A stretch of 64,000 nucleotides of DNA from Candidatus Scalinduaceae bacterium (GTDB taxonomy: Bacteria; Planctomycetota; Brocadiia; Brocadiales; Scalinduaceae): NCBI GenBank assembly GCA_046759445.1, contig JBHICG010000002.1:52763-116762 (forward strand), written 5' to 3'. This document shows, one piece after another, positions 33,001-39,000 of the stretch. The position numbers are program-made. Position 1 is the stretch's first letter; every line of letters starts with the position of its first letter.

Positions 33001-36000
33001 ATCTTTATTTTTTGTTTTCATCTCCTTTAAATTATCTTGAAGCCCTTTTTTTGCACATAATATTTTTTTTATTGCCGTATCATTACCATGAAGTTTCTGT
33101 TTTTATAAAGTCCGTATACCTTGCAAAGATTATGTGAACTTTATAGATGCATTTTGAGGTTTCTAAGAAAGGAAGGTATTTTATAGATCGGTGGGTGACA
33201 ACTTTCAATATTGATAACTGTAGGATTTTTGTCGTAATTACTCTATAACTTGTAATGGCAATTTAACCATCATAAAAAACTTGACAATTTGCAACAAACT
33301 TATATATATTTATACGCTTTGCTGAAAGAACATTTTCAAGATATTAGAATTTGTAACTATAATTTAGACTTAATGGAGGTTTATGATGAAAGCAAAAGTA
33401 GATGCGGATACTTGTACAGGTTGCGAACTTTGTGTGCAAACATGCCCTGAGGTTTTTGAAATGGAAGACGACTTAGCTGTCGCAAAGGTTGATGAAGTTC
33501 CGGCGGATGCAGAAGAAACCTGCAGACAGGCAGCCGAAGAATGTCCTGTTGAAGCAATAATTATTGAAGAATAATTATTGTGTGAAAACCGCAGGATAAG
33601 TATTTTGCCACAGAAGACAAATGGAATGTTGTGCGTGTCCGTGTTTAAGCTGTCTAAAGTTCTCTACGAACATTTCAGAACTGTTTTGAAGATTGTATGG
33701 GAAGTGATATAGTTTATGGAAATCTGCTCAGTACGATATCCGAGTACCAAGCCTCAACCTTTCCGTGAGTTCGATCAGCATTGGTCTGAAGCCCCACGTA
33801 GATAATTACGGGTGGTTCCTCTCCAAATTCCTGGGTATAGTCCTCATAATGGTTCACCTTGTAGCTTAACCACTTACCAGCATCTTTTTCACCACTCTGG
33901 ACTATTATCATCTTTGCCCTGGCCTCACATGGATTTTTAAAACGTTCTCCCACAGTCAGGTTATTTCCGTATGCATATATTAAGATCTTGTATTTGTATG
34001 GTATCCCCAAAAACATTTTCCCGTAGACCACACACACGGCAGCGGGGTAATCATCACCACCCACTTCCTTCTCTCTACTGTTCGGCAGGATATTAGAGAT
34101 CTTCCAGTTCCAACTCAAAAATGGATATTCTTTTGGGCCAAGATTAAGTGGTTTAAAGAGAATAGCACCACTATCATTTGCTTTTACATAAAGTGTATTT
34201 TTACCTTCTATTTTTACAAGCTTAGGCATAATCCTGTTCTTAATCTCCCTGCAGATTCCCTTATGGGTTTTCCAACCTATAGGTTCACCCTTAGCCATCT
34301 CTTGTTCATTGAAAGTGGTGATAAGAATAGAATCTTTTAGTGGCATTTCAGAAGCTGTGGCACAGGAAAAGGGAAAGAAGATAGTCATAATGATCAAGCC
34401 TCTCATAAAAGGCACGTCAAACATTTTGGGTTCACCGCAAAGAATGCAGAGATAATAGAGAAAATTCTTAATATATCAAAAATAAAAGGGCGAAGACTTA
34501 ATTTCTAAAAGAAGTATTTACCCTTTAGGGTTTTATAATAGGCTGCCCATGCATGTCATTCTGAGCCGTAGGTGAAGAATCTCTTACTTAGTAATCTCTG
34601 TGGTAAGTGATTATAATAATCTTTCAGCAATCTGGACTGCATTCAAGGCAGCGCCTTTCAATAAATTATCACTTACAATCCACAGGTTTAGTCCGTTTTC
34701 AACTGAGTTATCTTCCCTTATCCTTCCGACAAATGTTTCGTCTTTGCCTGCCGCATCAGTTGCCAGTGGATATAACTGCCTTGACGGATCATCAATGACG
34801 ACTAAACCCTCAGCCTTGCTCAGCAAGTTCCTTGCCTCATCGGCGTTTATCTTTGCTTCAGTTTCTATATTAACCGATTCACTATGCCCTCTAAAAACTG
34901 GCACCCTTACGGTGGTCGCAGTCATACATAAAGAATTGTCATCCAATATCTTTTTTGTTTCATTAATCATCTTCATTTCTTCTTCTGTGTAACCGTTTTG
35001 CAAAAAGGCGTTACTCTGTGGTATCTGAGGCAGGACATTAAATGCGATCTGATGAGGAAATACGTTTCGGTTATAATTGTCTTCATTAGAAAGCAGATAT
35101 TCACTCTCCCTCCTTAATTCGTCCATGGCCTTTAGCCCAGCCCCTGATACCGCCTGATATGTTGATACCACGACCCTCTTGATCTTTACGGCATCATGTA
35201 ACGGTTTTAAAACCAGGACAAGTTGGATTGTTGAGCAGTTTGGATTTGCAATTATGCCATTATGCTCTGTTATCTTATTTGCATTTACTTCTGGTACTAC
35301 AAGGGGCACATCATCGTCCATTCTGAAGGCGCTTGTGTTGTCCACAACAACGCTGTTGCCCTCAATAGCATATGGTGCAAATTCCCTGCTTATGGTACCA
35401 CCCGCGCTAAAAAGGGCAATGTTTATGCCTTCAAAGGAGTCCTTAGTTAATTCTTGTATCTGTATTTCATTTCCCCTGAAAACCACCTTCTTTCCTGCTG
35501 AACGACTTGAGGCAAGTGGCCTTATCGTATCGGCGGGAAAGTTCCTTCTTTCGAGCACCTTGAGCATTTCCGCTCCTACTGCTCCGGTAGCTCCAACTAT
35601 TGCGACATTAACCCCCATTCAATCTTGCTCCTTTTTTATATATTTTCCAGTGGTATTCCGTGTAACTCAGTGGTAAACTTTCCTCTCCTTTTTATTTGAC
35701 TCTGATTAAGATATCATCACTGATTCCTAGTTTGTTCTTTGTTTTATGAATCTGAGATAAAAATCTTTTGGCATCTTCTGGATAACCTGCAGTTGGCTTT
35801 ATGTCGTGTACCCTCTCTTGCCAGTACTCATTAAATAATCTTATAAATAGTTCTCGTATGTATTTACTGAACATTGATGCAAGCGCAGTTGGAAAATACT
35901 TTGAGTCTGCACCTACTGCAAATGATACATTCATCTTTCTTCTCTCATTGCTAATCTTATACGTTGATATTGAATTTCCCTCCAAAATAGCGTTTACGTT

Positions 36001-39000
36001 ACATCCCTCAAAACTATTTGCCAGTAATTTATGATAGTGATTTCTTCCCCCGTGTTTATCGATTAAGACTTGAGGTTCATTTTTCCCAAATTGCTCAAAT
36101 ATTCCTTTAAGATGTTTTTCGCTGTTCTTAAAAAGGAGTAAAGATTTGTTTCCGTAAAGTTTTAGCTGCTTGTTTATTTCATACGCACAAATAAAGATGC
36201 TCTTGACTTCAAGCAAACTTACCTCTTGTAGACTTATAGTGTTTTTGACGAGGTCAACATAATTCAGGATGGCAGATACATTTGATGCGACTGGTAAATC
36301 TATATCTTTTCCTTTATACCATGGATATTTATTAAATACTTCTTCGTTGTAGTTTGACAATAATTTTAACAAATCAGAAAATCTTGTTACTTGACCTTTT
36401 GTACACCAGATAAAGGATAAAACTGCTTCCTCCAAAATTTTTAATCCACTTTTTTGTGAATATATTTTTTTACTGTCATGTACAACTACACGGTTACGGC
36501 GTTTTTGAATCTTATCTGAAATCGCCTCTTTGAGTAAGTGCCAGATGTTAATTTTATTGTTATATTTAACAGGTATGTCAATGGCGACAGTGGTTAACAC
36601 AAGTGGCCCCAATTTCGGGCCGTAACCAGCCTCGTCAATACCCGCAATTATTGACATCTTTTTACGATTTCTTAAATTTTTCTTTGAGAATTATAAATGG
36701 AAATATTAAAAAAACAAAAGGCATCTTGGATTATAACGCATGGGTTAAGGCTGTCAAGAAACCATTTGTAGTCGAATAACCGGAGATTTATACAACCCTG
36801 CTAACTCTATTATATTTTGGAACACTACTCACAATTGGAATGGTTGAATAATAATATTGGGTCTGGCTCCACGCCATTAGTTAATAAACCTTAAAAAGTA
36901 TTGACAGCTAAAATGTTTTATGCGATAAATAGTCTTAATTACAAAAAAAAAAATTAACAAAGCCAACATGATTACCAAACTTAATATCAACAAGTTATAG
37001 GTTTTTCACAAAGTTATGACAAAAATGATAGAAGGTAAAGTTGTTAGAATACTTGATGAATACAGCATAGTTATCAATGTCGGCAGAAACGATGTGGTAT
37101 CAGAAGGCATGGTTTTTGCGGTTTTTACGCAGAGTGATGACGAAATAAAAGATCCAGATAATGGTGAAGTCCTCGGGAAGCTGGAAAACGTAAAAGACTA
37201 TGTCACCGTAGCTCATGTTCAAGAAAAATTTTCCACCTGTGTTGCAAGAGGGCAGGAAAAAATAACTAAAGAGAGTCAAAGCTCTGGTGTTCAAACTCTT
37301 AGTGGGGCTATGATGGCTGAATCTATGACAGCAAGACCAGGTGGCTATAAAGTCGGTACTGAGAAGTTAAATGTTAACGTCTCTCAGATTATGGGTATGC
37401 CGCAATCTGGCCCAATTTCAGTTGGTGATAGAGTACGTTCTGTTGGGATAAAAGTATAAAATCTAAAGATATCGCTACTTCTTTTTTAACCTCCAAGATA
37501 TTAATCTCTAATTCAACAATTTCTTGCTTTTTCTATCAGAATATTTATTAATGAAATTTCCCCAAATATCTGACAAGCGCTAAATTCGAAACCCGAAGCA
37601 CGAAATGTGAAATAAATTCAATGTACTGCACCCCTTTTATCAAGCAGCAAAATTTGTATTTGTGAAAATTGTAATATCAACAAGACGTTTATTGAAAAGA
37701 GAACCTAAATTATGAGAATTCTCAGATCACAAGATGGCAGTATTATGCGTGATATTGAAAAGATTAAACAGGAATTGTGTATATTTGCCGATACGGTGAC
37801 AGAGGTGATGTACGAAAAGACTAAAGAGGTATTTGGTGAACCACAATCTCCTCTGGAAAGTGTCAAACGCATTGTCAATGATGTGAGGGAAAAGGGTGAT
37901 GATGCCCTGGAGTATTATTCAGAAAAATTTGACAGAGTTACTTTGCCTGCAGAGGATTTTAGAGTTGAAGATTCTGAGATTGAGGATGCCTATAAGAGGG
38001 TGTCTTCAAATTTTATAAGTGCTATAAAAAATGCGAGAGAAAATATCCGAGTGTTTCAAGAATATATACGCGTCCGTGAACCTAAACCATTCTTTTCGAA
38101 TGGTGCAAAAATAAACGTAAAATATGAACCCATTGAAAACATAGGAATTTATATCCCCGGGGGTTCTGCTTCATATCCATCTACAGTTCTGATGAATGCG
38201 ATACCCGCAAGGGTTGCAGGAGTAAAGAAAATTACAGTTGTTTCGCCGCCCGGAGCGGATGGAAATATATCACCTGAAAGGCTGGTTGCATGTAAGGAAT
38301 CATATGTAGATGAAGTTTATAAGATTGGTGGAGTCCACGTGATTGCAGCCCTCACATTTGGCACCAATACAATCCAAAAGGTGGATAAGATAGTTGGACC
38401 TGGCAATATCTTTGTAACGCTTGCAAAGAGAGAGGTCTTTGGGTATGTGGGGATAGATATACTAGCAGGTCCAAGTGAAGTCTTAATAATAACTGATGAT
38501 ATTGAGAATTGTGCTTACGTTGCATCTGATTTACTGTCGCAGGCGGAACATGCCCCGGGTATTTCGATGTTGGTTACATGTTCTGAAGAACTTGCCAATA
38601 AAGTACAGGACGAAATATCTAAACAGCTTAAGAATTTATCTCGATGTGATTCAATCAAAGAATCAATCGACAAATTTGGTTTTGTCATTATTACGAAAGA
38701 TTTGAATGAGGCTGTAGATATTTCAAATGCCCTGGCTCCGGAACATCTGCAGGTTGTCGTGAGAAATAATGAAGAAGGAGTTTTATCCAGGATAAAACAT
38801 GCAGGCGCTATTTTTGTTGGTCCATTTACACCTGTGGCAGTTGGAGACTACATTGCCGGACCTTCACACGTTCTCCCGACTGGTGGGACAGCAAGGTTTT
38901 TCTCAGGACTGTCGGTAAATGATTTTTTGAAGAGGACGAGCGTAATTACATATTCAAAAGACGTTTTGGAATCATCAGCCAGGGACATAATTACAATTGC

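What a model noticed while it worked through the whole genome (the two positions that open the first line are those of the whole stretch)
35692..36657. Unrecognised Planctomycetota-signature RNase HII with a 100-aa insertion and Tyr for Arg in the GRG motif
The 321-aa hypothetical protein g00247 (no Pfam, NCBIfam or Swiss-Prot row) is the genome's only type-2 RNase H. It belongs to a divergent family with DEAGYG in place of DEAGRG and about 100 extra residues, near-universal in Planctomycetota, where it usually stands in for canonical RNase HII.
Evidence so far: Found in 40/41 phylum genomes; a full-length canonical PF01351 match in only 9 of the same 41 and 0/31 Brocadiales. Alignment of 19: invariant D8, E9, D61-S-K, near-invariant Y12 and D200. 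AlphaFold pLDDT 94; Foldseek top hits are all RNase HII/HIII, best 1eke E 5e-9; profile vs PDB the same. 78 of the 80 best GTDB loci are Planctomycetota.
(Added by a program. Inside this text positions count along the whole contig: contig position 52,763 is position 1 of the stretch shown here. "Call 12" and the like, gene names such as g00115 and contig names such as C1 are that model's own, and its searches are not shown. The text may have been shortened before it was handed on; [...] marks where a part breaks off. The agent that wrote the report below was given it as the finding of a first reader that could run no searches.)

Follow-up and report, generated by a model that had tools for sequence, protein, structure and literature searches.

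The report
Planctomycete replacement for RNase HII
This gene is an enlarged, divergent form of the enzyme that cuts stray RNA letters out of DNA, and it seems to do that job for almost a whole bacterial phylum in which the ordinary enzyme is missing.

Summary
The ORF (35692-36657, minus strand, 321 aa) is real and is the only type-2 RNase H found in this genome. Its family occurs in 197 of 201 phylum genomes searched.

Of 70 near-full-length PF01351 hits I read, 64 were HIII, 3 were odd HIII-like proteins and 3 were true HII. Those 3 lie in genomes lacking the family, and bacterial rnhB passes its cut-off in 0 of 201. The family therefore fills the HII slot beside HI or HIII.

It also keeps D8, E9, DSK, D200 and D/E251. 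The GRG Arg becomes Tyr, Leu or Phe; Arg-to-Ala had little effect in T. maritima. The '100-aa insertion' is three inserts, about 115-125 aa in total.

It is not unrecognised: Pfam scores it 36.6 bits against a 25.8 cut-off, and JGI names homologues RNase HII. I found no paper describing it.

Verdict: a new variant of RNase HII, most likely a ribonucleotide-excision nuclease (about 0.8). Activity is untested.

The parts
35692..36657 (-). Planctomycetota-type RNase HII gene, 321 aa (P0001)
   Evidence: family in 197 of 201 phylum genomes; type-2 RNase H fold
36616..36636 (-). D8-E9-A-G11-Y12-G13-P14: first two catalytic acids, GxG 2'-OH-sensing loop, and the Pro that is D/E/S in RNase HIII
   Evidence: D8, E9, P14 353/353; position 12 is Y318 L23 F11 V1; aligns to DEAGRGP
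36487..36573 (-). Insert-1 region, residues 29-57 (about 20 extra residues, conserved aromatic at 39)
36469..36477 (-). D61-S62-K63 motif
   Evidence: 353/353
36220..36462 (-). Insert-2 region, residues 66-146: about 70 extra residues plus one canonical helix; helical, with L75-E76, P112-W113-Y114 and P122. Whether helix 73-86 or 127-143 is the canonical one is not settled
   Evidence: no structural look-alike above TM 0.41 outside the family; median net charge -2 for residues 87-146
36142..36174 (-). N162...N170-K171-S172: family-conserved motif at the start of the helix that holds the non-cleaved-strand phosphate pocket in RNase HIII
   Evidence: N162 351/353, K171 353/353; profile alignment to 4py5 read with PMC4132731 passages; function inferred
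36034..36060 (-). D200-K-H-G-G-R205-x-x-Y208: third catalytic acid and following loop
   Evidence: D 339, G 14 of 353; Y208 353/353; aligns to human RNASEH2A DTVG..TY
35935..36009 (-). Insert 3, residues 217-241, a beta-hairpin (E226, S231, Y233)
   Evidence: strands 220-225 and 230-236 in the model; conservation
35905..35907 (-). D251, fourth acid (Asp as in HII here; Glu as in HIII in most of the family)
   Evidence: E 207, D 143, gap 3 of 353
35782..35787 (-). G291-Y292, the junction-sensing tyrosine (equivalent of T. maritima Y163 and yeast Y219)
   Evidence: Y 348/353; TAGYxxD aligns to GSGYPxD
35701..35703 (-). R319, aligned to the Arg of the RKSW motif; the protein ends two residues later
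   Evidence: R 346/353
34611..35618 (-). asd (aspartate-semialdehyde dehydrogenase), co-oriented 73 bp downstream; context only
   Evidence: same neighbour in 16 of 111 family loci, nearly all same-order genomes

Best explanation
This is the RNase HII of Planctomycetota: a stand-alone metal-dependent endonuclease that nicks duplex DNA 5' of a single embedded ribonucleotide (or an RNA-DNA junction) and so starts ribonucleotide excision repair. RNase HI or HIII in the same genome handles long RNA/DNA hybrids.

Shown here: fold, residue conservation and gene distribution.

Inferred from the T. maritima structure: D8, E9, D200 and D/E251 bind two metals, and K63 holds the scissile phosphate. The backbone amides of G11-Y12-G13 and the hydroxyl of Y292 read the 2'-OH at +1. 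The Y292 ring stacks on the deoxyribose at +2 and excludes a second ribonucleotide.

Inferred more weakly: a bulky Tyr/Leu/Phe replaces the Arg side chain in the minor groove. K171 and R205 add non-cleaved-strand contacts that may offset the lost C-terminal helix. The three inserts form a packed subdomain, more likely structural or protein-binding than nucleic-acid-binding.
For: Mutual exclusion with canonical HII. The family is in 197 of 201 genomes. Of 70 near-full-length PF01351 hits, only 3 have DEAGRG plus GY, and they lie in G024, G032 and G053, which lack the family even with the profile. NF000595 is over cut-off in 0 of 201 genomes versus 10 of 14 controls. All 4 genomes of each of two small classes lack the family and carry a DEAGRG HII. 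An Oceanispirochaeta genome with the family shows no PF01351 match at E<=0.01.

Partner pattern: with HI only 124, HIII only 58, both 9, neither 6. This is the usual 'HII plus HI or HIII' pattern (PMC1950709).

Tyr292 and Pro14 are the two positions whose change converts yeast H2 to an H3-like enzyme (PMC3597693); they are kept in 348/353 and 353/353 rows. K265, R268 and R319 are also kept. There is no N-terminal TBP-like domain, since D8 is residue 8. Profile-profile score is highest to archaeal-type HII: 111 vs 83 for HIII vs 73 for bacterial HII. R22A barely alters T. maritima activity.
Against: No activity data exist. Structural Z-scores are tied between HIII and HII: 4py5 17.1, 1io2 16.7, 2d0a 16.1, 3puf 15.7. 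The best tree put the family beside HIII (96/91), although AU tests did not reject the other two placements (p 0.64 and 0.54). The middle segment scores slightly closer to HIII, and the fourth acid is Glu, as in HIII, in 207 of 353 rows. R22A did lower single-ribonucleotide cleavage a little, because R22 steadies E19, and Tyr/Leu/Phe cannot do that. The catalytic D200 is Gly in 14 of 353 rows. I could not read model coordinates, so the 3D position of Y292 rests on sequence and profile alignment. G171 (99% complete) showed neither the family nor any HII.
Confidence: 0.8

Rival explanations
1. A type-2 RNase H with a changed or widened range: junction cleavage plus long-hybrid cleavage as a main role, or mismatched or damaged ribonucleotides, or dependence on a partner bound through the inserts.
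For: K171 and R205 align with Ta-RNase H3 Ile153 (phosphate pocket) and Arg185. The D200 loop resembles eukaryotic RNASEH2A, and eukaryotic RNase H2 has both activities (PMC4132731 passages). Family-only near-invariants (W113, Y208, Y233, E226) imply a second constrained surface or core. Six genomes showed neither HI nor HIII; one of five re-searched had an RVT_3-type HI.
Against: 191 of 197 family genomes keep HI or HIII. RNase HI (Plim_4135) is listed among essential genes in P. limnophila (PMC10632474 supplement file 5; insertion index 0.017, between the authors' 0.013 and 0.022 boundaries), which weakly suggests no back-up. The HIII pocket Tyr147 aligns to V/I/L165. No conserved partner gene was found.
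Confidence: 0.11
2. A hybrid-only RNase like RNase HIII, with no role in single-ribonucleotide repair; the phylum would then lack this repair or use another route.
For: Loss of the GRG Arg and a frequent DEDE set are HIII traits. The best tree and best VIA row are HIII.
Against: Tyr292 is present and the 2'-OH-binding D/E/S after GxG is absent (Pro14 353/353). There is no TBP-like domain. It coexists with a true HIII-type gene in 67 genomes and with HI in 133, but with canonical HII in none.
Confidence: 0.06
3. A catalytically weak or inactive binding protein retained for another role.
For: D200 is Gly in 14 of 353 rows, in 3 to 7 separate lineages. D107N inactivates the T. maritima enzyme.
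Against: D8, E9 and DSK are invariant, D200 is kept in 339 of 353 rows, and position 251 is always acidic. All 14 Gly rows have E251 followed by D/E252, versus 80 of 336 Asp rows, which hints at a compensating acid; this is not significant on independent pairs.
Confidence: 0.03

Closest known systems
Archaeal-type RNase HII (TIGR00729; PDB 1eke, 1io2) and eukaryotic RNASEH2A (3puf, 3kio)
   Same: Fold (Z 16.7 over 192 residues to 1io2); DEAGxGPxLGP, DSK, GYxxD and terminal Arg; best profile score
   Different: GxG centre is Y/L/F rather than R; three inserts of about 115-125 aa; the C-terminal helix and tail after the last Arg are missing (no Q..L.F in the last 15 aa in 0 of 353); 37.9 bits vs a 123.3 cut-off
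Bacterial RNase HII / RnhB (NF000595; T. maritima 3o3f, E. coli 7uwh)
   Same: Catalytic acids, DSK, junction Tyr, and the same genomic slot beside HI or HIII
   Different: Lower similarity (Z 12.8 to 7uwh; profile score 73); 30.2 bits vs a 167 cut-off; forms a separate clade
RNase HIII / RnhC (TIGR00716; 4py5, 2d0a)
   Same: Fold (Z 17.1, tied with HII); no GRG Arg; Glu as fourth acid in 207 of 353; N...N-x-x motif before the helix carrying the phosphate pocket
   Different: No TBP-like N-domain; Pro instead of D/E/S after GxG; has the junction Tyr; lacks KLHFKT; coexists with real HIII genes

Membership tests
Type-2 RNase H (PF01351) | RNase H fold with C-terminal helical extension | tested here: met
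   (Z 12-17 for seven type-2 enzymes; next fold 5.8)
Type-2 RNase H (PF01351) | Four acids DED(D/E) and DSK motif | tested here: met
   D8, E9, D200, D251 and D61-S-K in the query; family counts (D200G in 14 of 353)
Type-2 RNase H (PF01351) | Pfam whole-protein gathering score | tested here: met
   36.6 vs 25.8 bits, in short pieces; the best single piece in the genome search scored 19.6
RNase HII (canonical) | Junction-sensing Tyr in the C-terminal helix-loop-helix | tested here: met
   Y292 348/353, placed by sequence and profile alignment
RNase HII (canonical) | GRG motif with central Arg | tested here: not met
   0 of 353 rows have Arg; the glycines are kept in 352 and 348
RNase HII (canonical) | No acidic/Ser 2'-OH binder after GxG (Pro in yeast and archaea) | tested here: met
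   P14 353/353; PMC3597693 passages
RNase HII (canonical) | NCBIfam equivalog cut-off (TIGR00729, NF000595) | tested here: not met
   37.9/123.3 and 30.2/167
RNase HII (canonical) | Nests within a known HII clade | tested here: inconclusive
   own clade 100/99 on a 1.26 branch; sister group unresolved
RNase HII (canonical) | Cleaves 5' of a single ribonucleotide in DNA | not testable with these tools
   needs an assay
RNase HIII | N-terminal TBP-like domain | tested here: not met
   first catalytic Asp is residue 8; model strand 1 is residues 2-10
RNase HIII | GxG-D/E/S and absence of the junction Tyr | tested here: not met
   P14 and Y292
RNase HIII | Glu as fourth acid (DEDE) | tested here: inconclusive
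   the query has Asp; family E 207, D 143

The most novel reading that the evidence does not exclude
The family is a separate third branch of type-2 RNase H, neither HII nor HIII. It joins the HII junction sensor (Tyr plus Pro) to an HIII-like non-cleaved-strand site, uses an aromatic or aliphatic minor-groove wedge in place of Arg, and carries an insert subdomain with no look-alike found. In several lineages it has moved its third catalytic acid from D200 to the E251-D/E252 pair. It would then have a substrate range or metal geometry unlike any characterised RNase H.
Probability: 0.25. Interest if true: 0.7.

Novelty: new variant of a known kind. Interest (0 to 1): 0.48.

Why it matters
RNase HII is treated as near-universal, yet a 2007 survey scored its one planctomycete as having RNase HI only (PMC1950709, Table 2, Group E; meaning of E deduced from the table totals), and bacterial rnhB was not found in any of 201 phylum genomes here. 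This family fills that gap for nearly a whole phylum, anammox bacteria included. It shows that most full-length PF01351 hits there are HIII. It gives a natural test of how dispensable the 'conserved' GRG arginine is, and of whether the third catalytic Asp can be replaced. It is also a near single-copy phylum marker that needs its own HMM. It adds no new pathway.

Tried and rejected
Viral origin or carriage: two IMG/VR scans found no relative. The one phage-borne copy came from a GTDB bin.

Asgard archaeal copy: rejected. That contig carries phage head and replication genes, and the bin has its own archaeal HII and HIII.

Conserved operon or partner: none beyond asd in close kin (loci reach only 1.2-1.5 kb each side).

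Identity of the insert: no Pfam family other than PF01351 in 143 members, no non-RNase H PDB hit for the profile at E<=10, and no Atlas match above TM 0.41 outside the family. This does not show a new fold.

A basic nucleic-acid-binding insert: not supported by charge (median -2).

Descent from HIII or from archaeal HII: unresolved (LG+G4 only, no eukaryotic rows; 17 of 77 rows dropped for the AU test).

Species tree: quick rpoB tree only, and G053 had no rpoB row. G032 nests among family-bearing lineages, which suggests secondary replacement; G024 sits in the basal polytomy.

D200G covariation: too few independent pairs.

Essentiality of the family gene in P. limnophila: its locus tag could not be mapped, and the main supplementary data file was too large to read.

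Literature: nothing describing the family (open-access library only). The Kochiwa supplement search gave no hit. Earlier-findings look-ups were empty. No complex prediction or read mapping was run.
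Full report
Observation. The window holds a 321-aa ORF at 35692-36657 on the minus strand, beginning MSIIAGIDEAGYGP. It lies 73 bp upstream of a co-oriented asd and divergent from an ORF and his genes. PF01351 finds only this gene in G000, apart from one E 0.2 fragment with a stop. Five local HMMs over all six frames agree. One RNase HI is present. The closest named homologues are Ca. Scalindua proteins at 60-77% identity.

How recognised is it? Pfam gives PF01351 36.6 bits against a 25.8 cut-off, in short pieces, and all 143 aligned members hit it. NCBIfam cut-offs are missed by a wide margin. JGI names many homologues 'ribonuclease HII', while NCBI calls them hypothetical. 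The ESM Atlas labels the nearest clusters RNase HII or HIII domain proteins. So it is under-annotated rather than unrecognised.

Anatomy. The model from 143 sequences has pLDDT 96.9. It matches type-2 RNases H at Z 12-17, with HIII and archaeal or eukaryotic HII tied and about 190-200 of 321 residues aligned; Foldseek agrees. Across 353 dereplicated rows, D8, E9, P14, D61-S62-K63, K171 and Y208 are invariant. D200 is in 339, an acid at 251 in 350 (E 207, D 143), Y292 in 348, K265 and R268 in 349, and R319 in 346. Position 12 is never Arg (Y 318, L 23, F 11, V 1). Part of this set was selected by a motif that excludes Arg at 12, but the 147 similarity-selected rows also had none. The extra length is three inserts: about 20 residues before DSK, about 70 between DSK and D200, and a hairpin of 20-30 after D200. 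The chain ends two residues after R319. The large insert region has no look-alike outside the family and is not basic.

Specificity determinants. In T. maritima RNase H2 the 2'-OH is read by backbone amides of GRG and by Tyr163. Y163F seriously reduces activity, whereas R22A causes only a small drop on single-ribonucleotide substrate (PMC3025331, passages). In yeast, P45D plus Y219A converts H2 to an H3-like enzyme (PMC3597693, passages). This family keeps both residues (P14, Y292). It shares some HIII traits: no Arg, frequent Glu at the fourth acid (PMC9719913 and PMC13492167, passages), and a middle segment slightly closer to HIII. K171 and R205 align with Ile153 and Arg185 of T. ammonificans H3, near the non-cleaved strand (PMC4132731, passages). 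Overall profile similarity is highest to archaeal-type HII.

Distribution, the strongest evidence. The family is in 197 of 201 phylum genomes. PF01351 on the same set gave 69 listed near-full-length matches. I read these and one partial match; G153's partial match and 98 weaker unlisted matches were not read. Of the 70, 64 are GKGD-type HIII, 3 are DETGTGE HIII-like proteins and 3 are DEAGRG/GY HII. The 3 HII lie in G024, G032 and G053, which lack the family even by profile search; the fourth family-less genome, G171, showed neither. Bacterial rnhB (NF000595) passes its cut-off in 0 of 201 genomes but in 10 of 14 controls. Cross-table with RNase HI: family with HI 124, with HIII 58, with both 9, with neither 6; canonical HII with HI 3; HI only 1. 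Of five 'neither' genomes re-searched, one had an RVT_3-type HI. All genomes held for the classes of G032 and of G024 (4 each, several under 90% complete) lack the family and carry an archaeal-type HII. These are samples of draft genomes and kin are not independent, but the family behaves as the HII of each genome.

Outside the phylum. The other ten rows are two 'uncultured bacterium' records, two spirochaetes on contigs of 0.97 and 3.1 Mb, five bins named for other groups (three on contigs under 10 kb), and a Borrarchaeum bin. The Borrarchaeum contig is a 179-kb phage-like sequence. In the Oceanispirochaeta genome PF01351 found nothing at E<=0.01, and 0 of 120 other genomes of its phylum had the full-length family. 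So transfer is sporadic. IMG/VR scans were negative. Sister PVC phyla were not searched directly; none is named among the 120 rows.

Origin. The family is one clade (100/99) on a long branch. The best tree joins it to HIII (96/91), but trees joining it to archaeal-type or bacterial HII are not rejected. On a quick rpoB tree, one canonical-HII genome nests among family-bearing lineages and another sits in the basal polytomy. Presence in the phylum ancestor is plausible but not shown.

Oddity. D200 is Gly in 14 rows from 3-7 lineages, including Ca. Avalokitesvara rifleensis. All 14 have E251 followed by D/E252, versus 80 of 336 Asp rows. The independent-pairs test cannot reach significance.

Literature. 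PMC1950709 (passages and section 5) placed its one planctomycete in Group E, which by elimination and table totals is HI only. Searches found no description of the family; subscription journals are not covered. In PMC10632474 (passages and supplement rows), RNase HI is among the P. limnophila essential genes and no RNase HII/HIII-labelled row appears there. The full essentiality table could not be read, and it may bear on this gene.

Verdict. A real, phylum-wide variant of RNase HII, most likely a ribonucleotide-excision nuclease (0.8). It fails the GRG and equivalog tests, so it is not filed as canonical HII, and it fails the HIII tests. It is worth a family model and a simple assay. Interest 0.48.

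Noticed in passing
L271 and L273 (G201:C1, 179 kb, in a bin named Ca. Borrarchaeum weybense): Phage-like contig with a major head protein and head maturation protease, carrying an intact family gene near DnaB helicase, replication initiator and homing endonuclease genes. Its protein groups with Phycisphaerae-named rows.
   Followed up: partly
L102-L104 (G080, G063, G187; family f51): Long HIII-like proteins with DETGTGE, D[TA]K or ETK in place of DSK, GTGN in the Tyr loop and a C-terminal extension of over 100 aa.
   Followed up: partly
P0003, P0027, P0035, P0064, P0086, P0103, P0109, P0112, P0122, P0195, P0220, P0223, P0225, P0234: Third catalytic Asp replaced by Gly, always with E251-D/E252; a possible compensating acid.
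   Followed up: partly
L037-L101: RNase HIII is common in Planctomycetota (64 of 201 genomes) and mostly excludes RNase HI; 9 genomes have both.
   Followed up: partly
L035, L036, L059, L334-L338: Two small classes of the phylum use archaeal-type RNase HII; these rows do not form one clade and some nest among archaeal sequences.
   Followed up: partly
L272 (G202:C6) and L197: Family copies in two spirochaete-named genomes on long contigs; in G202 the gene lies just upstream of a probable rlmN (name recalled, not from a call).
   Followed up: partly
G000:C79 and G000:C105 (L313, L333): The window's genome has two rpoB matches, one cut by a contig end; duplication or bin contamination not examined.
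   Followed up: no
window 37016-37459 (+): 147-aa ORF divergent from the RNase gene, upstream of hisD, with only a weak FlgT_C match below cut-off.
   Followed up: no
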